34,927 bases of DNA from positions 1 to 34,927 of the forward strand of contig JNEM01013752.1 of assembly GCA_000697335.1 (NCBI GenBank). The letters run 5' to 3'. Each line of letters starts with the position of its first letter. Positions within the stretch are counted from its first letter, which is position 1. The translations under genes and the position numbers were made by a program. Below, in pieces: positions 480 to 34,927 of the stretch. The stretch comes from Conidiobolus incongruus B7586. Lineage: Eukaryota. The notes under the pieces were generated by a model. That model made no database searches. It saw only the letters and a program-made list of their open reading frames with translations, and was not told where the DNA came from.

Positions 480-1629
480 TACATAACCACTTGAACTAGT
501 ATATATTTAATATAATTTCAATGATTTTTTAATTAAGCCCTATTTATAACAAATTGAATTTCAAAATAGTTTTCAAGTTAAAATCTTTTGATATAATGAT
601 TTAATTAAAATATAAAAGACCACACATTTCATAATAAGTATAATCTGTCTCAATTTTTCCGATTTATAATATATTAGAGCAAACTATATAGAAGAATATA
701 AAAGGGATTTTCAACTTGATTTTGTTTGATATCACCTTTTTTGGATTTTATCTGTATGAATTGGTTATATTAAACGGAATCAAATTGATTTTTAACGGGA
801 GCATACTGAATAAATTTAAATCTAGTATATTATATATTTGCTTGGAATCACATTCAGTTCTTGCATCTATCATGATTTTGGAATGAAAGAGTCTGTAAAG
901 AATTGTACTCGGCATTAGGTGTAATGCTTCTGACAGTTGTGACATCATCTTCCATAACCACAAGCTCTTTGATTAAGCTCACTGTAGCAGGATATTTTTG
1001 AATTGTTTTGGCTATATTAGTTAAGAGTCCCAATGACATAATGGTTAATTTAAACGTTGATGATAATTTGATTGGATATAATATTTCATCTATAGTATCT
1101 CTGAAACTAACTTTGTACCTCCTTGATTTACCCGATTGATGGCTATTTTATCTTTTATATTCATTGATTGGAGTTGTAATATTGGTATCTCCAAAATCCA
1201 AACTTTTTAGCCCATTCCAAATCAGTCAACACTTAGTGAGCGACTTTTTTATTCTGAATATCATAATTCAAACCATATCAGAAGAATCAATGTGAGATAT
1301 TTTAAGTGGTTTACCAATTCTCACAGTTATTATTGGAATTGAATTGAACTAATACTGCTCTTTATATCAAGAATTTGGTTTAGTTTTATCATCTATATCT
1401 ATTTCTAAAATATAAATAGTTTTTCCCATAGTTTTAACAATATTTTATATTCCAAACCCCCCACTTATGAAAGTAATAGCACGAAAATATGAATTTGGAA
1501 TTCTTAAGCGATTGAAAAAAGCTAAATCATTATTTAAAGTTATGTCTGTATCCATAATTACTGGAATTTTTGACACAATTGAATCGATGAATATTAAAGA
1601 ATATTTTAATAAACTCTTTAAAATTTCAT
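480..1629 (-). pseudogene. Degenerate secreted-type IUNH nucleoside hydrolase pseudogene
   Basis: From ATG at 1629 the minus strand reads MKF*KSLLKYSLIFIDSIVSKIPVIMDTDITLNND..., then fragments SLGLLTNIAKTIQKYPATVSLIKELVVM, ITPNAEYN, LPLKINLIPFNIT, ENYFEIQF and LVQVVM. These are colinear with the intact gene at 25368-26606 but interrupted by stops and frameshifts. The 3' boundary is approximate. Confidence 0.88.
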
Positions 1630-2269
1630 AACAATATATATGTTTAATTATTATGTCTATATGATCAAAAAACTATATAATGCTAATACATATATTTTAT
1701 TAATAATTTGGAAACATATTATGAATATTGCTCTAAAGTTAATATAATAAATAAAAATAAACTATATTTAACTTAATATTGGAAAAATATCGCCATATTA
1801 TTATGTGATGAATATATTTACTGATATAATAAAATTCAACAAAATTTTACCAAAAATAATTAAATTTATTCAATTTGTTCATATTATAAAGATATAATGA
1901 ATTATAATTATTATGTTTAGGATTATATTATAAAAGGTATGCTTAGATCATATTAATATATTTTGAGATATTTTCTTTGAATCAATTATATTGAAATTTG
2001 GAAATATAATATATCTTCAATATTATGTATAATATTTTAATTAAATATATTATGAACATAAATCTATAAAATAAACGAAATTTATTCATTTAATTCAATA
2101 AGCAAAAAATTTTAAATATATATAATTAAAAGTAGATATTTTTTGAAGCTGTTTAATATTTATATTAATATTAATATCAATTTTTTTGAAAATAATATAA
2201 TTAAAACTATAAGTAAGATCAGTATATAGAGACTTTATTATTTTTCTATATTTAATAAATAATTAAATA

Positions 2270-3579
2270 TTACCTTGAATTTAAAATAATGGGAAATTTT
2301 TTAATTTCTGATTTTTCAAATATATTATTAGTTTGAAATAGATAAATATATACAAAGTTAATAGGAAATTATATATTTTTAATATATATATATATATTAG
2401 TTTTTTTGATTAAAAAATTAACTTTTTAAAATTGGTTGTTTAATTTAATCATGCTTAAACCAAATAATGATCATCAAAAGTTTTTTATTTTGGTATCAGT
2501 AAAACTTAACCATAAACCCTCTAAAATTATTTAAAATTTACAAGCAGCTTTTGGTAATAAAATATTATCTAAATCAACAATTTATTGCTGGGTAAATTAC
2601 TTTAAGGTTAAGAGAGAAACTATTCAAAACCTGTTAAAATTTAGAAAACCAACTTCAACTGTTACTTTTTCAATTATAAATAGAGTGAAAAAATATATTG
2701 AAAAGCACCTTTTTATTTCAGCTAGAGAATTATCTAAGTACTTTAATATTAGTTTTACAAGTATTTTATATATTTTAAAGTTTAAACTAAAATTAATAAA
2801 TAAAAATACAAAATAGGTACCTTATAATTTAACTAAAGCTTAAAAAAAAGCTAGAGTAGCTATTGCTAAATAAAACTTATTGAAATATTACTAGAAGCTT
2901 AAACTTTTATAGCAAATAATTATAATTGATGAATCTTAAATCCCTATATATAATCCTTTACTAAAACACAAATCAAGATGCTAGATTAAGCTATATCAAC
3001 CCCCTCTACAAATCCCTTTAAATAAGCATTTTGTTAATAAGTGAATATTAATTATTATAATAGATTATAATAGTATATGCTATTCTTATTTAGTTCCTGA
3101 AAGAAAATCAATTAATAATAAACTATATATTGTTTTTTTAAATAAAAGTATTTTTAATTAGTGTTCTCAATATAATTTGAGAAAACCTATTATTTTGCAT
3201 GATAATTGTAAAGTACATAAATCTAAAGCTGTAAAAAACTTTCTAATTAAAAATAACTGGAAAAAACTACCACATCTAGTATATTCTTTTGATTATAACC
3301 TATGTGATTATAATTGCTTTAGACAATTAAAAAACCAGCTTACAGGAAAGAAAATTTCTGCAGGAAAATTTAATTGGTTTGTGAAACATCAAATTTCAGT
3401 CTTTAATAAAAAGAACTGTTTTTTAAGTGTTAGAAGTTTGCTAAAAATATAGCAAAAAGTTATTAATAATAAAAGAAACTATTAAATTTATATTATATAT
3501 TTATTTTTATATATCATATATTCAAATGTTTATTTATTTTTAATTGCAAAAAATTCCTATTATTAAAAATACAGAGTAA
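2270..3579 (+). mobile_element. Full-length mariner (Tc1/mariner, DD34D) DNA transposon relic, copy 1
   Basis: About 1310 bp between TA dinucleotides (2268-69, 3580-81). Imperfect ~30-bp TIRs: left ttaccttgaatttaaaataatgggaaattttt, right (reverse complement) ttactctgtatttttaataataggaatttttt. Contains a transposase pseudo-frame at 2451-3485. Confidence 0.9.
2451..3485 (+). pseudogene. Mariner transposase pseudogene (344 codons, single frame, 11 internal stops)
   Basis: Manual translation gives *VPYNL (WVPHEL motif), IIDES* (TGDESW), LHDNCKVH (HDNARPH) and HLVYSFDYNLCDY (HPPYSPDLAPSDY). There are 34 residues between the 2nd and 3rd catalytic Asp. ORF 3177..3452 is one inter-stop piece of this frame. 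Confidence 0.93.
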
Positions 3580-4593
3580 TATTAATCAATCAATGCAAGA
3601 AAAAAAATATATTTATGCTAATTGATTTAAAAAATTCACTTGTTAAATAATTAAGTTTTGTTTAATTAGATATCTAGTATTTTTTGTAGATGTTTTTGAT
3701 AATCATAGTTATAAATGGAAATTTTTATACTAATTATAAACATTATTATATGATATACAAACTAATCATACTTATGAAAGAATATTTATTTGGTAATATT
3801 TTTTGATTTTAACAAATTTATGAAATAAATAAAATTATTTGATTTTATTTGATTTTTTTTAAATTATTCAAATTATTAAAATATAGTGTTGAATATTATG
3901 TATAAATACATGATTTACCAAAATACATCAAAGATAGTAAAAATATAAAATAATTATGCTTTGAATATAATCCTCAAGTGATTGAATTTTATAAATTGCC
4001 TTTAGAATTAATAATTGTGTATATTGTATTATTTGTTATTGTTTATTCTTCAAAGTATTTTAGTTTGAAGTATTATGTGTAATAACTATTTTAATGTATG
4101 AGATTAATAAAGAAGAATTTTATATATTGTACTTCGGTAAATTGAAATATTACCTTTATTCAACGAAGATGAATTATGAAATGTAGTATTGTACAAATAC
4201 AATCATGATGACTATTTTGAATTGTAAATAAAATGATATCTATAAATAAAACAATGATAATAAAGTAGTTATATAAATTTATTTTCTAATCTTTAATTAA
4301 TTGGAATACAGAATATGACATCAAAATTTTCAATATTAGTTTTCAAATGCATTAAATAGTTGAGAGAATATATAAATGGAACTTAAAATGATTAAAATGT
4401 TTGTAATTGAAGAAAAACTTTATTATTAAAAATTGAATGAAATTGAAAAAAAATCAAATTAAAAAAACTATATTAATAATATATTCATATTAAACAAAAA
4501 GCAAGAAAATAATATATAGGATATTTATTTTGATATTGAGAGCAAAATATAATTTTAAAAATATTTGGAAACATAAAAATAAGGGATTATCTG

Positions 4594-5149
4594 TGTGACG
4601 ATTGCTACCTAATTAATACCTTTCCTCACTCCAATTCACTATTAAGTACCTGATTAACCAAATTAGGCCTTATCAACATTTTACCAGTCCACATCTGAGT
4701 GACCTCACTGTTACTCATCCGTGCATACCTATGCCTATATATTTCACTTAAGTATAAGAAGGACTCCTCTCCTTTTGTGATTTCTCTCTCTTACCTTACT
4801 TTCTTACATTAATAAACCTTTTGCCTACATCCAAAACCAACCCTTTCGGTATACTCAAGTAACTGCTTATAGTTCCACTTGAGTCATTTTACACTAATCT
4901 TTCTAAACCTGTTCCTATTGATATTCCTTGACTCCATCTTCTTAGCATGTCGGATCCTAATGCCACCACTGTTGCTGCTGGTCTAGTCGCTCTTTACAAA
5001 GCCCATTTACAAGTGATCAAGGCCGAATAGCCTGAGACTTGATCATCGGTAGTTTACCCCAGCTGGTAGGTATCATATTTCACAATCTGGCCTACAGAAT
5101 GGCAGTGTCAGTGTCCTCAATGACGCTCCAAGAGCTAATAACCATGACA
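4594..5149 (+). mobile_element. Solo LTR A (556 bp), probably Ty3/Gypsy type
   Basis: Termini TGTGAC...ATGACA, flanked by the direct repeat ATCTG (4589-93, 5150-54). TATAAG at 4753, AATAAACCTT at 4811-20. GC-richer than the flanks and homologous to the inverted neighbour 5155-5721. Confidence 0.85.
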
Positions 5150-5154
5150 ATCTG

Positions 5155-5721
5155 TGTCACGGTTATTAGCTCCTTGAGCGTCATCGAGGATACTGACATA
5201 GCCATTGTGTAAGCCAGATTGTGAAGCATTGTGCCTACAAACTGAGGTAGACTGCCGATGATCAGTTCCCTGGCGATCCGACCATGATTACTGTTGAATG
5301 GGGCATTAAAGAGGGCGACTAAATCAGAAGTAGTAGTGGCAGTGTGAGGATTTGACATGCTAAGAAGGCAAAGTCACAGAATATCAATAGGAATGGATGC
5401 AGACGGATAATAGAATATGTCTCAAGTGAAGCTATAAGTGGCCTCTTGAGTACATTTGAGAGCAGGTTTTTAGTAGGAAAATAAGGTTTATTTGTGGAGT
5501 AGAATAGAAAGTCCTTTTTTGGATTGAGTGGGAAGGGTTGGCATAAATAGGCCATTACGGATCAATAGCGTGGTTGTAAGACATATAGATTTTGTGATAT
5601 CAAGGGTTTAGAGCCTTATTCATAACTGGTTGAGATTATTTATATGGCTTAATTGGGATAATCGGTGATTTGGTAGTGATTTTGAGTGAGAGAAGGTATC
5701 CATTAGATAATAAGTGTCACA
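5155..5721 (-). mobile_element. Solo LTR B (567 bp), inverted relative to LTR A, 10 bp upstream of tRNA-Arg
   Basis: On the minus strand it reads TGTGAC...GTGACA, flanked by ATCTG (5150-54, 5722-26). AATAAACCTT on the minus strand at 5483-92. Clear similarity to LTR A in both the 5' part and the 3' ~210 bp. Confidence 0.85.
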
Positions 5722-5731
5722 ATCTGTATAA

Positions 5732-5804
5732 GGTTCCATGGCCAAATGGATAAGGCGCTTGACTACGGATCAAGAGATTCCAGGTTCGATCCCTGGTGGA
5801 ATCG
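5732..5804 (+). tRNA. tRNA-Arg(ACG)
   Basis: 73 nt cloverleaf. Acceptor GGTTCCA/TGGAATC, anticodon arm CTTGA-CTACGGA-TCAAG, T-loop GTTCGAT. T6 run at 5822-27. Confidence 0.97.
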
Positions 5805-7417
5805 TAATGGTAATTCTTCTATTTTTTATTACTTTTTATTCGCTTTCCCATATTATATTGTATATTTTTTACTTTCTTCATTAATTGGATATCTTATTTT
5901 TTTATATTCGACAATATCTAATTCTTAATATTATATCATAATTAACAAAATTACTTAATTAAGATTCATATAAAATTTAATGGTTTTAACTTTTATCACA
6001 AAATTGAAACTTATTAACAATATAGTTAAAAAATCTTTATACAATTTTTTATCATAGTTAATTTAAATCCAATTTTAATTCTTTAAAATTATTCTTCCAT
6101 ATTGTTAAACTATATTCAAACTTTATATCTTGATAAAATCAATATTAACCAAGTGAGGATTGAAACAGTTTGAAAATAGTTAAAATAGTTACTAAAAATC
6201 TATTGATAAATTCATATAACATTAATTTGTAATACTTATTTTTTTTTGATAAACTTCAAAGTGAGATATATGTGACCAGAGTGTTAAATAACCGCCCATA
6301 TAGCTAAAATTCTAATTGTAATAGGTTATGACGGCTGAAAATTTCAAAATTAATCCAGTATAATTTACATCAATAATATAATATTAAATATTAGGTAAAT
6401 TTCCTCAATTCAATGAAATCATATTTACAAATTTACCGAAATAAACCCTACTATAGCTTATTACTTTCTTTAAGAATTGAACCAATTTGAATTAGTCATA
6501 GTGATGAAATAGATGGATCAGTAATAGTATATACATTTTGATGCCAAGATAATTTTATTATAATTTTTGGATAATTTTGAAATTTTGCACAAGTTTTTTA
6601 ATTATATGTTTCTATTTTTATCAAACTTAAAATTGATTGGAAAATAATTTATTATGATGAATTGAGGCGAATAGATGGTAAATTTATCACAGTTGATAAA
6701 TATTTTATAGGGATAATTAATTTTTAATTGCTTGGTAATATCTAGTTAATTATTTATAAGTTTAGTTGGTTTTGTATCAAATTCTTTGTTAGACTTGGTG
6801 AATTAATGTAAAGATTGAATGCTGCCAAAAGTGCGTAAATTTAAGTTTGTCAAATATAATTGAAGTATACCAATATAAGCAATTATAGTGTAATGTAATC
6901 ATGATGATGATATCAACCAAAACCATTTATGCGATTAACAAGCTTAAAGTTTTACTTATCGCTAAATTTATGTGTTTTATTATATATTTCACATTTATTT
7001 ACGCGAATTCACTCGAAAATTGAGAGCTAAATCACTCCAAATTGGAAAGACTTTAAAAAAGCTCATGTTTCAGAAATGTTACAAATTATTTGCATTGAAT
7101 GAAAAACCAATTAAATTTGTAGGTTCTTATGAGAACGTTGATTAGTTCAAATTATCTGAAGAGAAATACAGGTCACAAATAGTGAATAAATCCTTTTTAC
7201 TCCTTTTAAAAAAAATCTTTACATTTTTCATTGGAGATACTTTTTTATTTTTTGAGTATCTCCCCTGTTCTTTTTTGATATATTTAGGTTTTTCATTTTA
7301 GATATTTTTTTGTTTTTTGAACTCGTTTTTATTTAATTATTAAAAGTTTATTCATCTTTTATTGTATTAATTAATTTTAATATTATTATTTGAAAATAAT
7401 AAATATCTCGTATTAAT

Positions 7418-8752
7418 ATGTTCGTTAGTCTTTTTCAATTATGCTTACTATTGGGTTTTGTAACCTCTGATATATGTTGGGATACAGTATCACCTCAATC
7501 GAAAGTTGGAGGGTATCTCCAGCGAGTGGACTGCTCACCTGGTAAAACACCATCAGCCTTGAAAGTGAAATCTTCAGCAACCAAGCAGCTAGCAGGTGGC
7601 AACGGCAAAGTGTCAAAAACCAAAGATGGTATGATTGAAATAGACCTTACATGCACAACGGATCAAAGTACTTGTACTATGGTCATGGACACCTTTGTCA
7701 ATGCAGCAGAATATATGACAAATATAATTAAATTCAACACACCAATTCGTATTCAAGCAACTTTTACGTCATTTTGTTCTAATTTAGGCGATTGTGACAA
7801 GCTCCATCAGACCTTGGGCCAAGCCAGAGTCACCAGATATCATCAGCTAAGAAGTGATGATGGTAAAATCAGACTTTATCCTCAAGCCCTTGTCAAACAA
7901 ATATCTAAAACCACTAAGAGCTCTTTCCATGATAGTGATATTCTCGCCGACTTCAACTCCGATGCCAGCTTCTACTTCCAGTCACAAGGTGGACAGATCT
8001 CAAGAACACAATCTGACTTTTTATTCGTTGTTAGCCACGAGCTGATTCACGGACTTGGGTTCGCATCTCTTTACAATGACTACTTCAGTCAATCCACACC
8101 TCAAGCATTGTTCCCAAATCCACAAACAGCTACATATAATGATGGGTCAGCTAAAATTAGTAATTTCTTCGAATCAATTTTTGACCGCTATATTATGATC
8201 AAATCTAGTGGTAGGTCACTCACGTCTGTCACAGATGTGATCAATGGCTATGTAAGCAGCAACCGTGACAAGTTGTTCAAAAATGAGGATCAAGCATACG
8301 AAGACTTCATCAACTCCAGCCAATATTCAGTTGCAAAAGATTTGCTTCAAACTGCTCAATCTCCGGGCAGTATGGAGTTCGTGTTCAATACAACCACGAA
8401 GGTCCCTTTTTCCTCCCTTGTCCTCGAGACAAGTTTGAAGCCATATTCTGCGTCTTCATCAGTCTCCCACGTTTCTCTAAAGGATTATCAAAACAGTAAG
8501 GAATTCCTCATGAAGTACGAAATGAGTCCAGGTAGCAGCTTGTCCAAACTTGTTGGAGGCGTTGGCTCAAGTGGATGGGATACAGCACCTTACGGCCCAG
8601 GACTGATCGCCGTTCTGGAAACGATGGGCTACCCCACAAATCAAAATCCCCACCCCAATGTTGTCGCTGGCCCCGCATCTTTCGGTTTGAAAAATCTTAA
8701 AGTCTCCTGGACACTTTTGGCCACCTTTATGTTAATTTATTTCATTTATTAA
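7418..8752 (+). CDS. Secreted, probably GPI-anchored zinc metalloprotease-like protein (leishmanolysin/M8-like motif layout)
   Basis: 444 aa intronless ORF with a hydrophobic N-terminal signal (MFVSLFQLCLLLGFVTS), HELIHGLGF zinc motif, a distal SH...EFLM (candidate third His and Met-turn) and a hydrophobic C-terminal tail WTLLATFMLIYFIY. Confidence 0.8.
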   Translation: MFVSLFQLCLLLGFVTSDICWDTVSPQSKVGGYLQRVDCSPGKTPSALKVKSSATKQLAGGNGKVSKTKDGMIEIDLTCTTDQSTCTMVMDTFVNAAEYMTNIIKFNTPIRIQATFTSFCSNLGDCDKLHQTLGQARVTRYHQLRSDDGKIRLYPQALVKQISKTTKSSFHDSDILADFNSDASFYFQSQGGQISRTQSDFLFVVSHELIHGLGFASLYNDYFSQSTPQALFPNPQTATYNDGSAKISNFFESIFDRYIMIKSSGRSLTSVTDVINGYVSSNRDKLFKNEDQAYEDFINSSQYSVAKDLLQTAQSPGSMEFVFNTTTKVPFSSLVLETSLKPYSASSSVSHVSLKDYQNSKEFLMKYEMSPGSSLSKLVGGVGSSGWDTAPYGPGLIAVLETMGYPTNQNPHPNVVAGPASFGLKNLKVSWTLLATFMLIYFIY

Positions 8753-8960
8753 TTTGAATCTGAATATTGAATCATTTTAACTCCATCATATTATCCTTCA
8801 ATAATGACATTAATTAGTCCTTTCAAAAGCATTTCAACAAAGTTAGCCCATATTCAAAAAAAATTCTAGTTTTCAATAACCAAGTTTAACTCAAATTAAT
8901 TGATATGAAATTTGATTAATTTTTATTGAAATTTATTGGTGTAAATATTGTAAAAAATTA

Positions 8961-9033
8961 CGATTCCACCAGGGATCGAACCTGGAATCTCTTGATCCGT
9001 AGTCAAGCGCCTTATCCATTTGGCCATGGAACC
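8961..9033 (-). tRNA. tRNA-Arg(ACG)
   Basis: Exact reverse complement of 5732-5804, followed by a T-run terminator on the minus strand. Confidence 0.97.
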
Positions 9034-9085
9034 TCAATTTATCCCAATTTTTAATCAATAATTTTATGAAATCCTTTGAATATCG

Positions 9086-9120
9086 AATATATCATAATAT
9101 ATCATAATATATCATAATAT
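9086..9120. repeat. 10-bp tandem repeat (atcataatat) x3.5
   Basis: aatat-atcataatat-atcataatat-atcataatat read directly from the sequence. Confidence 0.85.
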
Positions 9121-9787
9121 TTCATTTTTAATATTAACAATTAATATTTTGAATATCTTATAATTTTATATTATTTATAATATTACTTTATCATTTTATA
9201 TTTAATTTTATTTTATTAATCCACAAATTCTTATTTAATTTTTATTTAATTTTCTTTTTTTTCATTGAATTAAATAACATCTAATTTAATTGGTAAAGTA
9301 CCTTAATATAAATATTATTTTAAATTTTTAAAACTTTTTTTTAAATTAAATGAATAAAATATTAGGAATATTATAAACTTTTATAAATTATAATTAATTA
9401 AATTTTATATAAAAATATTAATAATTTATCTATCAAAATAATATTTATTAATAATTAATAAATATATTTAATGATATACAGGTATATTTAGAAAATTTTA
9501 ACATAATTTTAGACAGCAAAAATAGAGACTTTATTAAAATTGGTTAATAATAAAAATAAGGAAAATTATTGATTTATTCGTGAATATTATGGATTTATAT
9601 ATTAATTAGAAGAATAGAAAAATGATAAAGATTAAAAGAAGGAAGTAGAATTAAAAATTTTAAAATGAAGTTAAATGAATGAATATTAAAGTGGACTTGT
9701 AAATTATGGTAAATTAAGTTGGATAAAAATAAATTTTAACTCTTTGTTACATCCTTTTTGTAATATGAGTTAAATGAAAAATATGAA

Positions 9788-10088
9788 TGTCACAGTTCTC
9801 AGTGGCATTACCACTGAAATCATGATCTACAGGGAGTTGTCACCAATCCATAACCCGCACAACTAGAACTGTGCTGTATACTGGTGGATGAACCACTGAT
9901 AAACAGAAATATATTAAGGTAAATAAGTAAGGTTTATTGTAGATATTGCACACAATAACAAGGTAAGGCTTAGTTATTGTACCAAAGATGGTATTTATAT
10001 GGTAATACCAGTATTGAGATTGAGCCATATACACATGATATGATTCTATTGGCTAGATGGTAGGAGAAACAGGATCAGATCCGTCACA
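9788..10088 (-). mobile_element. Solo LTR C (301 bp), 10 bp upstream of tRNA-Glu
   Basis: Minus strand TGTGAC...GTGACA, flanked by the direct repeat ATGAA (9783-87, 10089-93). On the minus strand CCAAT, TATAAATA (9992-99) and AATAAACCTT (9929-38) occur in the order expected for an LTR. Confidence 0.85.
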
Positions 10089-10098
10089 ATGAAATTAA

Positions 10099-10170
10099 TC
10101 CGATATGGTCCAGTGGTTAGGATTTCTCGCTTTCACCGAGACGGCCAGGGTTCGATTCCCTGTATCGGAG
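10099..10170 (+). tRNA. tRNA-Glu(TTC)
   Basis: 72 nt. Acceptor TCCGATA/TATCGGA, anticodon arm TCTCG-CTTTCAC-CGAGA, GTTCGATT T-loop, TTTT immediately downstream. Confidence 0.97.
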
Positions 10171-10712
10171 TTTTGAATATATATATCGATTTATTTTTCA
10201 TCATATTTATAATACCATTAATTTTTTTTAACTATTCCTTTTTTATATTTCTTACTAAAATGAATAAATCATATAAATTTTATTTTCTCCAATCTACATC
10301 TTTTCAACTAGAATTTTTTAATATATTCTCAAAATACTCCTACTTTATTGAGATTATTTAATAATTTTCTACAAAATATTATATATTTAATGAATAATTA
10401 AATAACTATAAAAAATCATTAAAAATATTTAAATATTAAACAATATAAAAATAGTAAATAACTGGTAATAGTATCAAATATTTGTTAAATTCAGTTATTG
10501 TTTAGAAATTCAAAATCAAGTGTTGCAATAAATAATATAATATGATATAGTATTATAATAATTTGAATTTAACAATAATCAAATAATACATATAATTAGA
10601 TTAATATAATTCTGGTTACTGTATAATCTTGATATATACAAAGTTATATCAAAATATGATGTTAATTGGATATAAATGGAAAAAATAACAAAAAGAATAA
10701 AAAATTTAAAAT

Positions 10713-10785
10713 CGATTCCACCAGGGATCGAACCTGGAATCTCTTGATCCGTAGTCAAGCGCCTTATCCATTTGGCCATGGAACC
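10713..10785 (-). tRNA. tRNA-Arg(ACG)
   Basis: Third identical copy of the Arg-ACG gene. Confidence 0.97.
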
Positions 10786-16800: not shown

Positions 16801-17295
16801 TTAAAGAGATGTCCAAGACATTAAGAGGATAGCCAAAGTGGTCGCCGTGAACATAGGTGCCAAATTAGAAGAGTCGTTGAGATTGGGTACTGAAGAAGCT
16901 GTGGACTTGGTTGAGGTGGATGCTGGTACGGTGGCAGTCTTGCCGTCGTTGACATCCTTGGCAATACACTTGTAAGTATTGTCACAGTCAGTAGAGCAGC
17001 TGGAGTCGCCGCCACATTTGGCCTTACAGTCCGATTTCTTGTCGTTGCAAGCTTGAAACGCCGCTGGGAAGGTGTTCATATCTTGTGGCGGTGTGAAGTT
17101 GTTCCCACAAGTACATTGAAAGTTATAAGTTTGGGGATCACATTTATTCACGCTGACTGTAGAATTATTATTAGCACATACTGTCGAACAAAATCTGATA
17201 TTAGCTTCGCAAGTTGAGTTGCGGACGTCGTCATCCGAGGTTTGACAGCTGTAGAGTGATGCAATAGTAATGGGGATCAAGTAATTCAATTTCAT
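16801..17295 (-). CDS. Small secreted Cys-rich, probably GPI-anchored surface protein
   Basis: 164 aa with a signal peptide, a domain of about 12 Cys, a Ser/Thr-rich stalk (ATVPASTSTKSTASS) and a hydrophobic C-terminal tail. The Cys spacing resembles a widespread uncharacterised fungal extracellular domain (from recall, not searched). Confidence 0.85.
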   Translation of the reverse strand: MKLNYLIPITIASLYSCQTSDDDVRNSTCEANIRFCSTVCANNNSTVSVNKCDPQTYNFQCTCGNNFTPPQDMNTFPAAFQACNDKKSDCKAKCGGDSSCSTDCDNTYKCIAKDVNDGKTATVPASTSTKSTASSVPNLNDSSNLAPMFTATTLAILLMSWTSL

Positions 17296-17840: not shown

Positions 17841-19522
17841 TCACTGCATTGGAATAGCACTATCAAGTTCTTCAGTTTTATGTTGAATATCTATGTTGCG
17901 CACCTTGATTTTGGAGTTGTCAAAATCAATATTGAATCCCATTGATCCGGATTCTCCTCCGTGTGTAGAATTTATTGATAATAATGGTTCGCTGTATCGC
18001 TGAGATGCCATGCTGTCACTCTCCTTTTCGGTATAAACATTAGTTGAATTGCGTCTCCTGAGCGCACCTAGGAACCATCCTCTACTTGATTGATTTGATT
18101 CATTCTGTGTGGAGACTGAATTGGCTCTGGACAATCGATTCAATCTTAAAGGATATCGATTTGTTCTATCCGTATTAGGAACATCTGAAGATTGTGAATA
18201 CTGTAAAATTGTAGGCTGAGGAATTTTTGATTTAAAAAATATAGTTTTCTTAATCAGTGGAGTCTGAACTTTGGTCGATTGAGAGCATCCTTGAGCTTGA
18301 TAGTCCTTGAGACTGTCCACCTCAGCATAATCTTTGCGAGCGGTAAATTTGTGTTGATCTGAATTGGAATCAGTTGGTAAATTTGGATTCAATGATAACG
18401 GCTCTGAAGGTTTGGATGGACCACTTCGGAACCAGCCTCCAGCCCATTGCTTAGCGGTGCCCACACGCGATTTGACACAGTTTTTGGCAATCATCATTTT
18501 GAGGCGAGCAACATTCTTCATAGCCCACAGCATACCGCAATTCACTAGGAATAGAATGAGGATAAATAGATCGAAGGAGCAATACCTAATCAATAGACAG
18601 GATAAAGTGAGACCTATGACTGCTTGTCGTCTGTTTTTCACGGTTTCAATTTCTCTTAATGTATGATAAGATAGCTTTGTGTCAGGAGGAGGATATGTGA
18701 GTAACGAAAAGAATTGTAAAGGGAACAACAATATGTTATTTTCATAACGTTGACAAGTTGTGTGGGCATTGCTATTTAGCATATTGATAATACAAGTTGC
18801 GCTTCCAATCGCTAGCTGGATATAGGGTTGCAGCCAATCAAGGATGTGCAACAACGTTGCGGTACTACATTCTTGGTGAGTTTGTCCCAGTCTTGGATGC
18901 GTTTCACTTGTTTGACTTGAGCTTGAATCACTCCTTGCAGAGTTGGAACTAACAGAATTCATCATATTAACGGATGAAGGTCGACTATTCCAATTGAATT
19001 CACCACCTCCGAAAGAACTCATCAAATCAGACATATGAGACGATGATGACGAGGCAGTACTGGGAGGATCCAAACCAGGTAACCTGTCATTAATCGTATC
19101 GAAATCTGATAGCGTATGATCAGCATTATGGATATTTCCGTCGTCATCTTCCGAGATAGAATGTGTTGAAGATTGATCAGGGAATGATGAATATTCACTA
19201 CGAATCAATTTGACAAGCTGACTTACTTTAGCATTCTGCAATCCGGTTATAAGTCTATCAACAAAGAAACTAAATTCCGACTCAATTTGCTCCAGATTAT
19301 CACTTTCTGCCACTAGACAATCGTTTAACAAATATAATTATGAATAAATTAAAAATTACCTTTGTAAGCTGGATAAGTGCCCAAAACAACTCTGTAAAAG
19401 AATTTATTTTGGATACTGTTGATAATATGAGATTGTAGAGTGAATTGATCCTGTTTGTATATTATCTTCCATTTGCTATCGTTTATCTCTGTCGAAGGTA
19501 TTAAAGTTGGGTATATGAACAT
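17841..19522 (-). CDS. Two-exon hypothetical membrane protein (544 aa)
   Basis: Exon 1 19360-19522 (ATG, MFIYPTL...), 47-nt intron 19313-19359 (GTAATT...CTAG), exon 2 17841-19312. Splicing joins two listed ORFs in frame (..YK-V-AESDN..). Central hydrophobic hairpin AVIGLTLSCLLIRYCSFDLFILILFLVNCGMLW flanked by Ser-rich low-complexity regions. Confidence 0.8.
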
Positions 19523-22500: not shown

Positions 22501-22960
22501 ATTATATTTAACTTTAGTAGTAAATAAGAAAAACTATTTTAAACTTGAATATATTAAATTTTTGTGTTATAGATATTAACATTAATTATGATATTGTTGT
22601 ATTTTAAAATTAATCATCCATTCCAATTTGATAGTTAAACCAATATTATTTCTATTTTAAACTAGCTTTGTTAGTTTATAATTGAAAGATACTCTTTGTT
22701 CACTTTGTTTTCTTTATTAAATTATATCCAAATTCCATATCATTCATTTAAGCAACTATTTAAACCCAAAAGTGATAAAGATAGAGAAAAGTCTTTTCTT
22801 TTTGAATATTCTGCTACAAAGTCTCAACAGTAAGTTCTCAAACCTACAGTCCTGACACATTAAATAGCAGGATTAATAAATAATTTACTAAATCATATTT
22901 CGAGTACTTTTCTAACTACAATCTTTATTTACAAAACTTATTATAAAAACACAACAATAT

Positions 22961-23690
22961 ATGAAATTACCAAGTGTCTATTTCAGTTTGCTTTATTTCA
23001 CTATTGACTTAGTTTTGTTAAAAATGTCATTAATTATTGATACAGACCCGGCTGCAAATAATATTCTAGTTATATTCAATGGCTTAGTAACTACAATCTT
23101 AGATATTTGTATTGTGACTTTGACTAGTGGGAATGTTGGAATAAAAAATATGTTTAAAACCATTGAATCATTTTTCCATACTATTGATTTAAATACAGGA
23201 TATTAGCCTAAATTGGAACACTCGTATAAAGAAAGATATTTGTTTAGTTCAATCCCATTGGTTGCCTTGAGAAGTGGGAAACCAATTAAAGTATCTCCGA
23301 TTAATTCTGCTAATATACATGGAAATAATAATGTTGGGAATATGACAGTCACTAATTCCGAGTTGATTGATTTCAATTGGGGTAAAAAGTTTAGTTTGGA
23401 TCTTGCTGTTATTAACGTTACAACTCCAATCAATGAATTTAAAAAATTGAATAACCATCAATTGGATAAACCAGCGAAATAAACGTTGGCTCCAGAGACC
23501 CTATAGATGAAATATTATATCTGATATAACTGTCATCAGCATTTATATTAATCATTATGATATTAAGACCATTGACAAATATAGCTAAAGCAATTCAAAA
23601 GGATCCAGCTACGATGAGTTTAATCAAAGAGCTCGTAATTATAGGAGGTGTTGCTATAACTTATGTAACATTATCCATTAGCAAATTTTA
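22961..23690 (+). pseudogene. 3'-truncated secreted-type IUNH nucleoside hydrolase pseudogene
   Basis: Signal-peptide-like start and IIDTDPAANN (degenerate DTDPGIDD). In-frame stop at 23204-06, frameshift near 23480, then RDPIDEILYLI*...PLTNIAKAIQKDPATMSLIKELVIIGG. Homology is lost near 23690. Confidence 0.9.
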
Positions 23691-25367
23691 AAAAGATATA
23701 AACCATATATTTGAATCATAATATAAAAAACTAGTTTTTGTATAACTTTCATATTTGAGTTATGCCCCAAATATAAATATTAAATGAAGAATTATTAACA
23801 AAATTTAATTCTAAATCGCAACTCCAAAATCTAGTGATATCCAAATCATTCATTTTGTTATTTGTAGTATTTGTATATAAATTTTATATTAAGTCAAGCG
23901 AAGTGATTTAAATTGAAACTATTTTCATATATATAGACAGTGCAATATTAATAAAATGATGATATAAAATTTTAAAAATTGTTTTCAAATTTGATACTAA
24001 ACTTGACATTATAACCTTAACTTCAACCTTTACTCACCTCATAATACTAAACAATTCTATAATGATTTTAAAATCTAGTTAGTAAAATCACTTCAAAAAC
24101 TCTCATTTTACTTGATTATTAATTATATTGTGATCAATTTTTGTATTTAATATCAGGTGAACTTGAATTATTTGAAAGTAGTCACTATATCAAAAAATGT
24201 GTATTCGCTAAATAGCCAGATTGGGTATATGTTCAGTTTGCAACTAGTGCTGTTGATTGCATGTGGACATCGATAATTAAAAGCCCAGCCTTCACGTTTG
24301 ATTTATCACTCTGTAATTTATCTGATTTGTTATATTTTCTCTAGAAAATAGAATATTATATCAGGTTTTTTAATTATCAAGTAATATTTGTATATTGAAA
24401 TTTATGCCTCTTATAAGATCAGAGTATTCTTTGGTTTAAAGTCTAATTGAAAAGTTTTAATAAATACAGATACCTCTTCCTCTTTGGTACTTTATTAAAC
24501 GACAAAGTAAATATATATTAAGTAATAAAAACCCTTAATTAATAAAAATAATTTGAATTGATTTATCCAATCATGTTAATTACAAAAGTAAGTTTAGAAT
24601 GTGTTTAAATTTATTAATGGAAAAATATATTGATAAGTAAAAAATATATTAATCTCTTTTATTGCTAAGTTAATGTTTTTCTATTGCTTCTCAAAAATGT
24701 ATATAACTTGACTATCGAATACATTTTATCAATATATTTTCAATTTGATGATTTCAATAAATTTTTTAACTGAATTGATCCATTAATTATCTTAATTTTA
24801 CTATTTTATTCGTTAGGTACCAAATTAAATTAAACTTTGGAATTGTTGACAATAAAATTGAAATATTTTCTATCAAAATTTGATAAAATATGTTATCATA
24901 TTTCATTAAATATCATTACTATGCCTTGCTTTTTATATCAAAAATTTAAATATTATTTGATTATGACAAAAATTTTTTTATTATGATTGATTAATTTGTT
25001 TTAAAGATAGAAACCTGTAATGAGTTGAAAATTATGATGCAATCCGTGTTTTAGGAAAACTTTTAATATGTAATAACAATATACTTAAACTTTTTAGTTT
25101 TCATTATCATGGTTTTATCGCTGATATTTTTACAATTAATGATATGTCTTCGAATTATCAGATTTTTTGGTAGAGATAGTAGTTATTAAAGCATATGATC
25201 CTATTCCTTTGAATTATTCAATTTATCCCACAAGGCTTTGCAATTTTAGAATGAGATGATAAAATTTCAATTAATTTAAGATTGTCAAATAAAAAAATCG
25301 ATTTCTTCAATAATCTCAAAAATTTATTTTAAGCAAAATATTATATTAACCAATAATATATAGTTAA

Positions 25368-26606
25368 ATGAAGTTGCAAATAGTTTATATAAGTGTCTTT
25401 TATTCAGCTATCAATTTAGCTCGATCATCAATTCCGGTCATTATTGATACGGATCCAGGTATAGACGACGTTCTAGCTTTATTCAATGGTTTAGCAACTC
25501 CCAAATTGGATATCCGAGCTATAACTCTGGTCAATGGAAATGTAGAGTTAAGACAAGTTGTGAAAAATATAGCAACAATTTTCCATACTGTTGATTTAGA
25601 TACAAAATATCAAACTAAGTTGAATCCCTGTTATAAGGAGCGATATCGTTTCAATTCAATTCCTCAAGTTGCTATTGGAAGTGACAAGCCACTAAATGTA
25701 CCTCCGCCTATTTCATACGATTATTATGGGATTGATGGTCTTGGTAATGTAACAGTGGCTCATCCTGAATTTGTTGATTTGGATTGGGAAAAGAAATTCG
25801 GTCTAGATCATGTTAGTATTAATTCTAATGCTCTTGTTGATCAATCTAAAGAGTTAGAGAAAGATAATCTGTATCAGCAAGAAAGATATCGCGTTAGTCC
25901 CAGAGATGCTGTAGATGAAATATTATATCAGATCAAATCAACACCACCATTCACCTTAACCATTATGGCATTAGGACCATTGACAAATATAGCCAAAGCA
26001 ATTCAAAAGGATCCAGCTACGATGAGTTTAATCAAAGAGCTCGTAATTATGGGGGGTGCTGTGACAGCTCCCGGAAATATTACACCAGATGCTGAATATA
26101 ATTTTTATGTAGACCCTCACGCTGCCAAAATTGTGATTGATGCCAGCTCTGGATACTATCCAAATCAAAAATATGATTTATCTAAATTCAATTCATCCAG
26201 GATTTTACCATTAAAAATTACTTTAGTACCATTAGATGTGACAGAAACTGCAAGATTATACCCCGAAGTAGTTGAAGCCAAACTTCGCAAGGATAGCAGT
26301 CCCGTGAGCATCTTTTTATACAACATGCTTCAATTCGCACTAAATTTAGAAGAATGTGACGAAAACAACGTATGCAAAAAGGGCACCGGACTTCACGATC
26401 CCCTATGCCTCAGCTATATCACTGGATTAGCGCGTGCAAAACGCGAAAAATATTTCAACATCCAAATAGGTGTCGATGGCGATTTGAGAGGAAAATGTAG
26501 AATTAATCAGCCGAACAGTCGCAACCTTGTTAAAGTTGTACTGGGAATTAAACACCCTTTAAAATTGCAAAATTCATTGTTGGATAATATTATTGATAAA
26601 AAATGA
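25368..26606 (+). CDS. Inosine/uridine-preferring nucleoside hydrolase (IUNH family), predicted secreted
   Basis: IIDTDPGIDD Ca2+/ribose motif, VNGN, LGPLTNIA, IMGG, GNITPDAEYNFYVDPHAA, VPLDVT and LHDP. A ~20-aa signal-peptide-like extension precedes the first strand. Confidence 0.93.
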   Translation: MKLQIVYISVFYSAINLARSSIPVIIDTDPGIDDVLALFNGLATPKLDIRAITLVNGNVELRQVVKNIATIFHTVDLDTKYQTKLNPCYKERYRFNSIPQVAIGSDKPLNVPPPISYDYYGIDGLGNVTVAHPEFVDLDWEKKFGLDHVSINSNALVDQSKELEKDNLYQQERYRVSPRDAVDEILYQIKSTPPFTLTIMALGPLTNIAKAIQKDPATMSLIKELVIMGGAVTAPGNITPDAEYNFYVDPHAAKIVIDASSGYYPNQKYDLSKFNSSRILPLKITLVPLDVTETARLYPEVVEAKLRKDSSPVSIFLYNMLQFALNLEECDENNVCKKGTGLHDPLCLSYITGLARAKREKYFNIQIGVDGDLRGKCRINQPNSRNLVKVVLGIKHPLKLQNSLLDNIIDKK

Positions 26607-28387: not shown

Positions 28388-29578
28388 ATGGTTTGCGAAA
28401 TAGTTCCAGTCATTATCGATACTGACCCAGGTTGTGATGATGTGTTAGCACTTTTGAATTGCTTAGCATCTCCAAACCTTGATATTCGTGCTATTACCGT
28501 CACTTTTGGAAACGTTAACTTGAGGAAGGCTACGAGGAATCTTGCTTCAATGTTTCACACCATCACCCTGGATAAGGAATATCACACCAGCTTGAATCCC
28601 AACTATCAAGATCGCTTTCAATGGAATTCTATCCCTGTCGTTGCTCTCGGAAGTGAAGCACCTCTTCATATCGCACACATCGATGCCGAAAATTTCCACG
28701 GACTTGACGGTATTGGTAACGTCACTACAAGTCATCCACAATATGTAGATAAGTACTGGTTCAAGAAATTTGGTCTCGAACCCCTGGAAGAAGAAATAAA
28801 ATTTGAAATCAAGGAGGAACAGAAAATGGACAAGAACCATGCTGAAGGTCATCCCAGATTTGAGGTGAGCCCCAGAGATGCTGCTGATGAAATTTTGTGT
28901 CAGATCAAATCCGTTCCCCCATTCACTATGACAGTGATCGCCCTTGGACCATTGACAAATGTTGCTAAAGCCATTGAAAAGGATCCATATACTATGGGCT
29001 TGATCAAACAGCTCGTAATCATGGGTGGTGCTGTCACAACGAGAGGTAATGTTACTCCATTTGCTGAATTTAACTTTTATGGAGATCCCCACGCTGCTAA
29101 AATTGTCATGGATGCAAGCGCTGGATTTGACCCCAAGCAACCCAGAAATGCTAATCTGACAGATTCCACTCAACCTCTCCCTCTCCCCATCTGCTTAGTT
29201 CCATTAGACGTTACAGAATCCGCCAGACTATTCCCAGAAGTGGTTGATGCTAAAATCGCGAAAGACGAGAGTCCAGTTGGCAAAATGCTTTACAATATGC
29301 TCCAATACCCCATCAGCCTAATTGAATTAAATGACAACGACATCTGCACGGGAGGTATGGGACTGCACGATCCACTCTGTGTCAGCTTCGTGACAAGTTT
29401 AGCCGAAGTTGAGCATGAGCAATTTTTCAATATTACCATTATCGAGGAGGGAGAACAAGCTGGTAAATGCTCTGTCGACCAGCCCAACACCAATAACAAT
29501 GTCAAAGTTATCCTCAAAGCTAAGAACCCTCTTAAATTCCAACACTTTTTGTTAAATAATATTATGGATCCAAAATAA
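28388..29578 (+). CDS. Inosine/uridine-preferring nucleoside hydrolase (IUNH family, Urh1-like), cytosolic type
   Basis: IIDTDPGCDD, TFGN, FHGLDG, LGPLTNVA, GNVTPFAEFNFYGDPHAA, VPLDVT and LHDP. No N-terminal extension. Confidence 0.95.
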   Translation: MVCEIVPVIIDTDPGCDDVLALLNCLASPNLDIRAITVTFGNVNLRKATRNLASMFHTITLDKEYHTSLNPNYQDRFQWNSIPVVALGSEAPLHIAHIDAENFHGLDGIGNVTTSHPQYVDKYWFKKFGLEPLEEEIKFEIKEEQKMDKNHAEGHPRFEVSPRDAADEILCQIKSVPPFTMTVIALGPLTNVAKAIEKDPYTMGLIKQLVIMGGAVTTRGNVTPFAEFNFYGDPHAAKIVMDASAGFDPKQPRNANLTDSTQPLPLPICLVPLDVTESARLFPEVVDAKIAKDESPVGKMLYNMLQYPISLIELNDNDICTGGMGLHDPLCVSFVTSLAEVEHEQFFNITIIEEGEQAGKCSVDQPNTNNNVKVILKAKNPLKFQHFLLNNIMDPK

Positions 29579-31478: not shown

Positions 31479-31985
31479 ATGTTACTCAAATTCAATTCCT
31501 TAAGGTCGAACAGTTACCACAAAATGCGAGAAAACGACAGCGAGTTCCTCATCACCGAGGAGGACCGCACTACCAACCAATTCGAATTAAACGATTTTAA
31601 CACCAGCAGCAACAATTACATTAATTATAACGACCAGTTGACTGAATCCCAACTCCAGTATGAGGATAAATATATCAGAATTGATCACAATATGATAGAG
31701 TTGAAACATTACTACTTCCCTACCGGCAATAGTAAAATGATACCCATTAAAGAAATTCTGGATATAACCACACCGGAGGCAATGGGTGTTCCGTGGTGGG
31801 ATGTGATGATTTGGGGTAGAGGAATTCATAATATTTGGTGGGCTAAGGATTCTAACAGAGATCAAGGTAGATGCTCCAACACTATTTGTCTAAAGCAGAG
31901 GGGCGAAAAATGTATCAAAGCGTGTTCCGCTCTCGATCGCGAACGGGTTTTGAGAATTGTGAGATTTAGGCTAAATCTGAATTAA
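31479..31985 (+). CDS. Hypothetical protein with a C-terminal beta-rich (possibly PH-like) domain
   Basis: 168 aa, GC-richer than the flanks. Low-complexity N-terminus, then YEDKYIRI...HYYFP...K.IPIKEI...WGRG...IWWAKD..R. The true start could be the second Met (MRENDS). Confidence 0.75.
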   Translation: MLLKFNSLRSNSYHKMRENDSEFLITEEDRTTNQFELNDFNTSSNNYINYNDQLTESQLQYEDKYIRIDHNMIELKHYYFPTGNSKMIPIKEILDITTPEAMGVPWWDVMIWGRGIHNIWWAKDSNRDQGRCSNTICLKQRGEKCIKACSALDRERVLRIVRFRLNLN

Positions 31986-33134: not shown

Positions 33135-33637
33135 AAATATTTGAAAAATAAGATATTTTATTACTATCCTCCAAAAGATAACAATATATTCTAATTTATT
33201 AACGTAAATTTAACAAATATGTGTATGAGTAACTTGTTTAATTATGATAAACTTAATGTTTTGTAATATAACAACCTATAGTTTGGTTCAATTGAATTAT
33301 TGCATAGATAATAGTTAATATATTTATTTCATTCTCTTAACTATTCTGTTTATTCTGGATTGATTCTTATTCCTTAAAATGTTATATTTTTTGATAAAAA
33401 GTTAATATAAGTTGATTTTAAAAATATTATTGCTTTTTTTAAATTGAATCAATTTATTATATAGATAAAATATATATTATATGATCATACAGGCAATATT
33501 ATTAATATTTAAAATGAAATATTTATTTTTATAAATAAATTTAAATGAAATTTATAATTGATTATATTTATCTAAAATTATTTAATTAAGTTTTAAAATT
33601 TAAATTATCTTTTTTAAAATCACTTATATTTTATTTA

Positions 33638-34924
33638 TTACTTTGTAATTTAAATAATAAGAATTTTTTATAATTGAAAAAAATAAACATTATAATATAT
33701 AAAAAATAAAAATAAATATACAATATAAAATTAATAATTTCTTTTATTTTTAACAAAGATTTATTTAAAAAATAAATCTTTTTATTAAAGACTGAAATTT
33801 CATATTTTATAAATTAATTAAATTTTGCTATAGAAATTTTCTTTCCTATAAGCTAGTTTTTTAATTGCTTAATATAATTATAATTATATAAGTTATAATC
33901 TAAAGAATATATTAGATATAGTAGTTTTTTCAACTTATTTTTAATTAGAAAGATTTTTATAACTTTAAATTAATATATTTTATAATTATCATATAAAATA
34001 ATAAGTTTTCTTAAATTATATTGAGCATACTAATTAAAAATAATTTTATTCAAAAAAGAAATATAAAGTTTACTATTAATTAATTTTCTTTTAAGAATTA
34101 AATAAAAATAACATATATTATTATTATTTATTATAATAATTAACATTTACTTATCAATAAAATATTTATTTTAAAAAATTTATAAAAAATGTTAATTTAA
34201 CTTAATTTAACATTTAGATTTATATTTTAATAAAAGATTATACAAAAAGATTTATAATTCATTAATTATAATAATTCACTATAAAAACCTTGGTTTTTAA
34301 TTATACTATAGTAAGTTTTATTTAATAATAGCTATTTTAACTTTTTTTAAGCTTTAATTAAATTATAAAGTATTTATTTTATATTTTTATTAATTAATTT
34401 TAATTTAAACTTTAATATATATAAAATACTTATATAATTAATATTAAAATATTTTGATAATTCTTTAGCTGAAATAAAAAACACTTTTTAATATATTTTT
34501 TTCTTTATTAATAATTAGAAGAGTAATTGTTGAAATTAATTTTTTAAATTTTAATATGTTTTAAATAATTTCTTTCTTAACTTTAAAAAAGTCTACCTAG
34601 TAATAAATTATTGATTTAAATAATACTTTAATATTAAAAGCTGCTTATAAATTTTAAATGATTTTAGAGGGTTTATGGTTAAGTTTTACTAATACTAAAA
34701 TAAAAAACTTTTCATGGTTACTATTTAATATAAGTATAATTAAATTAAACAACTAATTTTAAAAAATTATACTTTTAATCAAAAAAGTTATTATATATAT
34801 ATATATATAATTTAAAACTATTTATTCTCTTATTTATTTTGTATATATTTTTTTATTTGAAATTAATAATATGTTTAAAAAATCAGAAATTAAAAAATTT
34901 CTTATTTTTTTAATTCTATAGTAA
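33638..34924 (-). mobile_element. Mariner transposon relic, copy 2 (inverted, more degraded)
   Basis: The reverse complement aligns by eye along copy 1 (e.g. gtaaaacttaaccataaaccctctaaaat is shared). Both TIRs and flanking TA are present (33636-37, 34925-26). The transposase region spans about 33731-34737, with ATG changed to ATA and a short deletion near the 3' end. Confidence 0.9.
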
Positions 34925-34927
34925 TAA

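What the first reader, a model, noticed from the sequence alone, without database searches (positions are those of the whole stretch)
4589..5804. Two diverged solo LTRs stacked in opposite orientation at one nucleotide position 10 bp upstream of tRNA-Arg (triple TSD)
Seen: ATCTG-[LTR A 4594-5149, +]-ATCTG-[LTR B 5155-5721, -]-ATCTG-TATAA-tRNA-Arg. One 5-mer present three times is what two independent integrations at exactly the same 5-bp target would leave. Known: yeast Ty3 integrates at Pol III initiation sites through TFIIIB, and Dictyostelium retroelements also target tRNA flanks. Inference: this is a position-specific, tRNA-targeted Gypsy-like retrotransposon family that re-uses the same site and pushes older copies outward. 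Consistent with that order, the distal LTR A has a broken ORF while the proximal LTR B is intact. I do not recognise the family, and the 10-bp gap is shorter than the roughly 16-19 bp typical of Ty3.
Basis: partly seen in the sequence, partly recalled or inferred. Interest (0 to 1): 0.88.

Follow-up and report, generated by a model that had tools for sequence, protein, structure and literature searches.

The report
Solo LTRs stacked at tRNA genes
In a Conidiobolus-like fungus, two likely retrotransposon end-repeats (solo LTRs) sit back to back between three copies of the same five bases and end 10 bases before a tRNA gene, and a third element ends 10 bases before another tRNA gene, which likely reflects tRNA-gene-targeted insertion of the kind known from yeast Ty3 and Tj1.

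Summary
Observation confirmed at the stated coordinates: ATCTG-A(556 bp,+)-ATCTG-B(567 bp,-)-ATCTG-TATAA-tRNA-Arg(ACG); A and B are about 75% identical. New: a third element C (301 bp, 9788-10088, duplicated ATGAA), only weakly alike, also ends 10 bp before tRNA-Glu. Contigs from one sample show more: 2 of 2 countable LTR-tRNA-Glu junctions are 10 bp, in both orientations, and 5 of 5 LTR-LTR junctions have 5-bp spacers (listed rows only). A 68-codon frame running off the LTR 3' end shows purifying selection (dN/dS 0.23), likely a gag start. The host's nearest named relative is Conidiobolus coronatus (76%). Best reading: LTR retrotransposons position themselves on the Pol III machinery and re-use the -10..-6 target. 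Not shown: a gag-pol parent (so Ty3/Gypsy membership is untested), genome-wide specificity, and read support for the window's own A|B and B|tRNA junctions. The 10-bp gap is not unusual: Tj1 inserts at -5 to -11. I found no report for Entomophthoromycotina in nine literature searches. The scan noted similar stacks in other fungi. Verdict: new member of a known kind.

The parts
4589..4593 (+). Distal copy of the 5-bp target duplication ATCTG
4594..5149 (+). Element A, 556 bp, likely solo LTR (TGTGAC...ATGACA); TATATA at nt 143 and AATAAA at nt 218; 3' end faces the tRNA; likely the older insertion
4947..5149 (+). Broken copy of the LTR-terminal reading frame (1-nt gap near 5001, TGA at 5033-5035)
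   Evidence: most of the summed family depth lacks both lesions (tables 3, 4)
5150..5154 (+). Middle copy of ATCTG between the two 3' ends
5155..5721 (-). Element B, 567 bp, likely solo LTR (TGTGAC...GTGACA); TATAAA at nt 78 and AATAAA at nt 230; 5' end faces the tRNA; likely the newer insertion
5155..5358 (-). Open 68-codon frame from ATG to the last base of the LTR; likely the start of gag; no homologue found
   Evidence: dN/dS 0.23; mismatches by codon position 17/6/26; chi-square P 0.002; permutation P 0.0125; searches negative
5722..5731 (+). Proximal ATCTG (positions -10 to -6) plus TATAA (-5 to -1)
5732..5804 (+). tRNA-Arg(ACG), identical to two unoccupied copies at 8961-9033 and 10713-10785
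9783..9787 (+). Distal target duplication ATGAA of element C
9788..10088 (-). Element C, 301 bp, likely solo LTR of a second family (TGTGAC...GTGACA; TATAAA at nt 90, AATAAA at nt 151); only weakly like A and B
   Evidence: (A vs C: 1 of 300 shuffles reached the score; B vs C: 26 of 300)
10089..10098 (+). Proximal ATGAA (-10 to -6) plus ATTAA (-5 to -1)
10099..10170 (+). tRNA-Glu(TTC)

Best explanation
Three TG...CA elements with 5-bp target duplications lie at positions -10 to -6 of two tRNA genes, and they are likely solo LTRs of at least two retrotransposon families (probably Ty3/Gypsy) whose integrase is predicted to be positioned by the RNA polymerase III factors bound on the tRNA gene. 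Shown by the sequence: the termini, the triple ATCTG, the shared 10-bp offset, the opposite orientations of A and B, and a codon-like substitution pattern in the terminal frame. Inferred steps: (1) a full-length element integrated with a 5-bp staggered cut at -10..-6 of tRNA-Arg, duplicating ATCTG; (2) LTR-LTR recombination left solo LTR A, with the first 68 codons of gag inside it; (3) the tRNA promoter is internal, so the gene stayed a target with ATCTG still at -10..-6; (4) a 75%-identical relative integrated there in the other orientation, duplicated ATCTG again, pushed A outward and was itself reduced to B; (5) a different family did the same once at tRNA-Glu (C). A 10-bp gap would mean a tRNA leader of about 5 nt if the cut is at the start site, as for Ty3. 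Whether the tether is TFIIIB (Ty3) or TFIIIC (proposed for DGLT-A) is untested.
For: Triple 5-mer and complete termini. Second locus at the same offset; given the first site, an LTR-end motif at that offset of one of the other four tRNA genes has a chance of about 4 x 7.7e-4 = 0.003 before counting the duplication (motif frequency; hand arithmetic). All 3 elements found in the window are at tRNA genes. table 5c (12 of 42 rows shown, 7 distinct joints): 2 of 2 LTR-to-tRNA-Glu joints count to 10 nt (5150->10096 with the LTR 3' end facing the tRNA; 5699->10096 with the 5' end facing it), and 5 of 5 LTR-to-LTR joints count to 5 nt (5721->5155, 5147->4594, 5143->4594, 5137->4594, 10092->4594). Joint 5715->10083 puts a B-type end in register before tRNA-Glu (letters between not known). 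Multi-copy: up to 51 contigs at one place in A and 33 in C (table 3). AATAAA lies on the ORF strand in 3 of 3 elements and on the other strand in 0 of 3. The frame runs to the last base of the element, as expected of an LTR cut off from its internal region. Known precedents: PMC4600332, PMC5911963, PMC5014426, PMC6101501.
Against: No gag-pol parent and no homologue of the 68-residue frame: searches found none, none, no usable hit, only one sub-threshold hit (E 0.1), three hits that are repeat-protein artefacts, two chance bacterial loci. No genome is held, so the share of copies at tRNA genes is unknown; 12-15 contigs per run show LTR 3' ends next to mixed flanks that could be distal sides or non-tRNA sites (table 7). 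In one search the only contigs counted at 5152 (2 of 2) and 5726 (1 of 1) carry other letters, none carries the window's letter at 4847, and 4000-4433 is thinly covered; the tool says that a filter drops records, so this neither confirms nor refutes the junctions. The four runs are one sample and may be the window's source. Joints listed to tRNAs are all to tRNA-Glu. 3 of 5 tRNA genes in the window have no element. The coding signal is moderate (P 0.0125 by permutation) and rests on two sequences.
Confidence: 0.8

Rival explanations
1. Same targeting, but the parents are not Ty3/Gypsy (Ty1/Copia or another LTR lineage).
For: TG...CA ends and 5-bp duplications do not separate the superfamilies; a gag start inside the LTR is recalled for Ty1; no pol was seen.
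Against: In the review table every LTR element with start-site precision is Ty3/Gypsy, while Ty1, Ty2 and Ty4 use a window of about 1 kb (PMC5911963). Ty3 elements dominate related Entomophthoraceae genomes (PMC11105155), although the same passage gives only 0.01% for Neoconidiobolus thromboides.
Confidence: 0.08
2. A, B and C are complete short non-autonomous elements (MITE-like relatives of integrase-type DNA transposons such as Ginger/Tdd), not LTR remnants.
For: TGT...ACA ends and 5-bp duplications also fit such elements (recalled, no call); no internal region was seen next to any end.
Against: The terminal inverted repeats are only 5-7 bp; the frame has no stop before the end; TATA-like and AATAAA motifs lie on one strand.
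Confidence: 0.05
3. The elements are not tethered to Pol III: they land in one another's ends or at open sites, and survive near tRNA genes by selection.
For: Five LTR-LTR stacks are not shown to be next to tRNAs; genome-wide distribution is unknown.
Against: Selection does not give one exact offset at four countable junctions, two tRNA types and two families; C is a single insertion at that offset; the duplicated 5-mers differ among sites, so there is no fixed target sequence (table 5c).
Confidence: 0.05
4. The inverted pair is an assembly mis-join between repeat copies.
For: The window's own A|B and B|tRNA junctions were not among the contigs counted.
Against: A and B differ by about 25%, so they are not a fold-back copy; a mis-join of separate loci would bring unmatched 5-mers (chance about 7e-7); similar 5-bp stacks occur in contigs; unique flanks match the runs with no differences over 583, 1362 and 811 bp (table 8).
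Confidence: 0.02

Closest known systems
Tj1 of Schizosaccharomyces japonicus (Ty3/Gypsy; PMC4600332, parts 1-2 of 4 read)
   Same: 5-bp duplication; inserts 5-11 bp upstream of mature tRNA ends, 8 of 13 at 10-11 bp (one entry is printed without its sign).
   Different: Tj1 inserted in one orientation only and over a 7-bp spread in S. pombe; here both orientations occur and every countable junction is 10 bp. Tj1's LTR is 244 bp. No sequence likeness was tested.
Ty3/sigma of Saccharomyces cerevisiae and Tyl3/Tyl6 of Yarrowia (PMC5911963, PMC5014426; passages)
   Same: 5-bp duplication, fixed position at tRNA genes, both orientations, solo LTRs left behind.
   Different: [quoted passage not shown]
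DGLT-A of dictyostelids (PMC5006619, PMC6101501; passages)
   Same: Ty3/Gypsy LTR element upstream of tRNA genes in either orientation; later insertions at the same tRNA gene are noted in a table footnote.
   Different: Window of 13-33 bp (13-16 in D. purpureum); amoebozoan host; contacts Tfc4 of TFIIIC in two-hybrid tests.
beta LTR / Tca8 of Candida albicans (PMC5911963 table)
   Same: Known mostly from LTR remnants, 6-30 bp upstream of mature tRNAs.
   Different: Broad window; ascomycete host.

Membership tests
LTR retrotransposon (solo LTR) | TG...CA ends with a short terminal inverted repeat | tested here: met
   3 of 3 elements
LTR retrotransposon (solo LTR) | 4-6 bp target-site duplication | tested here: met
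   5 bp at 3 of 3 elements; 5 of 5 listed LTR-LTR joints
LTR retrotransposon (solo LTR) | Dispersed multi-copy family | tested here: met
   tables 2, 3, 7 (one sample; depth is no copy number)
LTR retrotransposon (solo LTR) | Parent with two direct LTRs, PBS, PPT and gag-pol | tested here: inconclusive
   no genome held; searches with the terminal frame negative
Ty3/Gypsy (Metaviridae) | pol order PR-RT-RH-IN and RT placed in the Ty3/Gypsy clade | not testable with these tools
   no pol sequence available
Ty3-type Pol III-targeted elements | Fixed offset upstream of tRNA genes of several types | tested here: met
   10 bp at tRNA-Arg and tRNA-Glu in the window and at 2 of 2 countable contig joints
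Ty3-type Pol III-targeted elements | Most copies in the genome lie at Pol III genes | tested here: inconclusive
   3 of 3 elements in the window; no genome-wide count
Ty3-type Pol III-targeted elements | Cut at the transcription start site; integrase binds TFIIIB or TFIIIC | not testable with these tools
   needs start-site mapping and protein tests
Ty3 / Tyl3 proper | [quoted passage not shown] | tested here: not met
   10 bp here; PMC5014426 passage
Tj1 | [quoted passage not shown] | tested here: met
   Table 1
Tj1 | Fixed orientation, same as the tRNA | tested here: not met
   A forward, B and C reverse; both in contigs
Ty1-type Pol III targeting | Insertions spread over about 1 kb upstream | tested here: not met
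   one offset at all four countable junctions (small sample)
Ginger/Tdd-like DNA transposons | Long terminal inverted repeats (recalled: tens to hundreds of bp) | tested here: not met
   5-7 bp only; the criterion is recalled, not from a call

The most novel reading that the evidence does not exclude
Conidiobolus-like fungi carry an independently evolved lineage of LTR retrotransposons, with several coexisting families, that targets tRNA genes with single-nucleotide precision at -10..-6 whatever lies upstream, carries about 68 gag codons inside the LTR, and builds dated stacks at tRNA genes. This would extend Pol III start-site targeting to Zoopagomycota and offer a targeted counterpart to the Ty3 expansions of the giant Entomophthoraceae genomes.
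Probability: 0.3. Interest if true: 0.62.

Novelty: new member of a known kind. Interest (0 to 1): 0.45.

Why it matters
Start-site targeting of tRNA genes is described for ascomycete yeasts and social amoebae. A case in an early-diverging fungus gives a further lineage in which to ask whether the habit is ancient in Ty3/Gypsy or arose repeatedly. The invariant offset predicts a short (about 5 nt) tRNA leader in this fungus, and the stacks record the order of insertions. The mechanism itself is a known one, so the gain is in range and precision.

Tried and rejected
No whole genome held. Parent search with the 68-residue frame: longer proteins, 0 of 139 candidates; similar-length proteins, no candidate; viral contigs, 0 of 26 stretches; metagenome contigs, 2 of 237 stretches, both a GC-rich bacterial recombinase-like frame sharing one 8-residue word, rejected; ESM Atlas, no usable hit; HMMER over 1.84 billion representatives, 3 hits, all repetitive proteins, rejected after reading the three sequences and two pairwise alignments; Pfam, one sub-threshold hit. 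The tRNA-Arg 5' part is not in viral contigs. A host gene searched in prokaryote genomes gave only 24-35% prokaryotic hits and no fungal contig among the 80 listed. No RNA holder listed. Earlier notes by place and by sequence: none. An alternative end for A at 5084 (internal TCACA-ATCTG) was rejected because homology to B runs on to 5149. Repbase could not be searched: a name Gypsy-8_CCO-I appears in PMC4289320, which assigns it to C. cinerea, while I recall CCO as Conidiobolus coronatus; unresolved, so relatives may already be catalogued there. No supplements were read.

Full report
Observation. The structure is in the sequence as described: ATCTG 4589-4593, element A 4594-5149 (556 bp), ATCTG 5150-5154, element B 5155-5721 (567 bp, minus strand), ATCTG 5722-5726, TATAA, and tRNA-Arg(ACG) 5732-5804. 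Both elements begin TGTGAC and end (A/G)TGACA on their own strand, are 40% GC in a window that is mostly 10-30% GC outside genes, and share 400 of 529 aligned bases. Two more copies of a given 5-mer at fixed junctions have a chance of about 7e-7, and 0 of 500 block shuffles gave three TSD-flanked units.

A second locus in the window. Reading upstream of all five tRNA genes showed GTCACA ten bases before tRNA-Glu. It is the end of element C, 9788-10088, 301 bp, flanked by ATGAA on both sides. C is only weakly like A (1 of 300 shuffles reached the score) and not significantly like B (26 of 300), so it is a second family. Both proximal duplications occupy -10 to -6 of the mature tRNA (the shuffle control also destroys the tRNAs and overstates the case). 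Given the first site, an end motif at that offset of one of the other four tRNA genes has a chance near 0.003 (from the motif frequency). The other three tRNA genes, two of them identical to the occupied tRNA-Arg, have no element in the 120 bp upstream.

Other copies. No genome is held, but four runs of one sample hold 82-83% of the words of 4000-9000; they may be the window's source and are not independent. Laid on 4000-10500, their contigs pile up over A, B and C (up to 51 contigs at one place in A and 33 in C; summed depth tens to hundreds of times that of the flanks, which the tool says is no copy number). Table 5c shows 12 of 42 rows, which are 7 distinct joints. Five join an LTR end to an LTR end, and all five count to 5 letters between the ends if equal LTR length is assumed, in tandem and head-to-head arrangements and across families. 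Two join an A/B-family end to tRNA-Glu, and both count to 10 letters: one with the 3' end and one with the 5' end facing the tRNA. A further joint (5715->10083) is in the same register with the letters between not known. Against: the contigs counted at 5152 and 5726 all carry other letters, none has the window's letter at 4847, and the left flank is thinly covered, so the window's own junctions are neither confirmed nor refuted; the tool warns that a filter drops records. C's left junction is crossed by an 811-bp contig without differences, 30 letters into the element, one short of the tool's bridging rule.

Are they LTRs? The ends and 5-bp duplications fit. AATAAA lies on one strand only in all three, downstream of a TATA-like word. 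In B an ATG at 5358 opens 68 codons that run to the last base without a stop. A frame of this length arises somewhere in 13.5% of shuffles of B, so length alone proves nothing. But A and B differ at codon positions 1/2/3 by 17/6/26 (chi-square P 0.002), dN/dS is 0.23 in this frame against 0.32-8.6 in the other five, and 44 residues are identical against 37.5 +/- 2.6 when the same substitutions are placed at random (P 0.0125). A selected frame that leaves the element is what a gag start inside the LTR would look like. It has no detectable homologue, so this stays an inference, as does the Ty3/Gypsy label. A carries a 1-nt gap and a stop in this frame; about 65% and 97% of the summed depth in X1 lacks them (tables 4, 3), in line with A being the older copy.

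Host. A nucleoside hydrolase in the window is 76% identical to a Conidiobolus coronatus protein, and next closest to Basidiobolus and Entomophthora proteins at 37-40%. The host is a Conidiobolus-like member of Entomophthoromycotina; the species was not determined.

Mechanism. tRNA promoters are internal, TFIIIC places TFIIIB upstream, and Ty3 integrase docks on TBP/Brf1 while DGLT-A proteins contact Tfc4 (PMC5911963, PMC6101501; passages). An integrase positioned this way cuts the same five bases again after an earlier insertion, because the proximal duplicate stays at -10..-6. That gives flank-TSD-old-TSD-new-TSD-tRNA, as seen. B used the same five bases although everything upstream of them had been replaced by A's 3' end, and Arg and Glu genes with different upstream sequence give the same offset, so the position is likely set from the gene side. 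This does not separate TFIIIB from TFIIIC. One full element cannot leave two inverted, 75%-identical LTRs with a duplication between them, so two insertions are needed.

Comparison. Ty3 and Tyl3 ends lie 15-17 bp upstream with a leader of about 10 nt (PMC5014426, passage). Tj1 lies at 5-11 bp, mostly 10-11, in one orientation (PMC4600332, parts 1-2 of 4). DGLT-A lies at 13-33 bp and Tca8 at 6-30 bp (PMC5911963). Later insertions at an occupied tRNA gene are noted for dictyostelids (PMC5006619, footnote passage). So it works like Ty3 or Tj1; it fails the Ty3 distance and the Tj1 orientation criteria, and membership of Ty3/Gypsy could not be tested. Nine searches of the held library listed no paper whose title or abstract start points to tRNA-targeted LTR elements in Conidiobolus or other Zoopagomycota; the passages shown from the E. 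muscae genome paper (PMC11105155) do not mention it. Subscription journals, Repbase and supplements were not seen. PMC7175516 (passages) and PMC4289320 (one passage) added only background. The scan's own notes, unchecked by me, list a similar two-element stack 16 bp before a tRNA in a probable gut fungus, a five-LTR array in a yeast and a single LTR at 23 bp in Basidiobolus.

Verdict. A real feature, well explained by a known mechanism, in a lineage where I found no report of it. Interest 0.45: the precision shared by two families and the new host group are of value to specialists, but the parent and the genome-wide test are missing.

Noticed in passing
window 2268-3581 and 33636-34926 (inverted copies, 80.5% over 1320 bp): Decayed DNA transposon, likely Tc1/mariner-type: a helix-turn-helix-like stretch at 2535-2813 and a DDE-like stretch at 3162-3449 (Pfam DDE_3, E 0.003, below its cut-off). 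The family label rests partly on recalled motifs.
   Followed up: partly
window about 782-1639 (-), 22960-23691 (+), 25368-26606 (+), 28388-29578 (+): Four paralogous inosine-uridine nucleoside hydrolase sequences, 67-77% identical in DNA; two are long open frames with PF01156. The other two gave no ATG frame of 100 aa and may have introns or be broken.
   Followed up: partly
window 5732-5804, 8961-9033, 10713-10785: Three identical tRNA-Arg(ACG) genes within 5 kb, plus tRNA-Glu; only one Arg copy carries elements.
   Followed up: yes
window 5080-5089 and the matching place in B: Both LTRs hold TCACAATCTG inside the terminal frame, the same letters as the B-end plus duplication junction; probably chance, since other junctions have other 5-mers.
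   Followed up: partly
elements A, B, C: CpG observed/expected is 0.39, 0.55 and 0.19, and C>T/G>A and T>C/A>G changes dominate among copies (table 1): possible methylation-driven decay.
   Followed up: no
window 7418-8752 (+), 17841-19034 (-), 31479-31985 (+), 16801-17295 (-): Three frames without a Pfam match (the 444-aa one has a signal-peptide-like start and an HELIHGLGF motif, which looks like a secreted zinc protease; recalled motif) and one DUF7707 protein.
   Followed up: no
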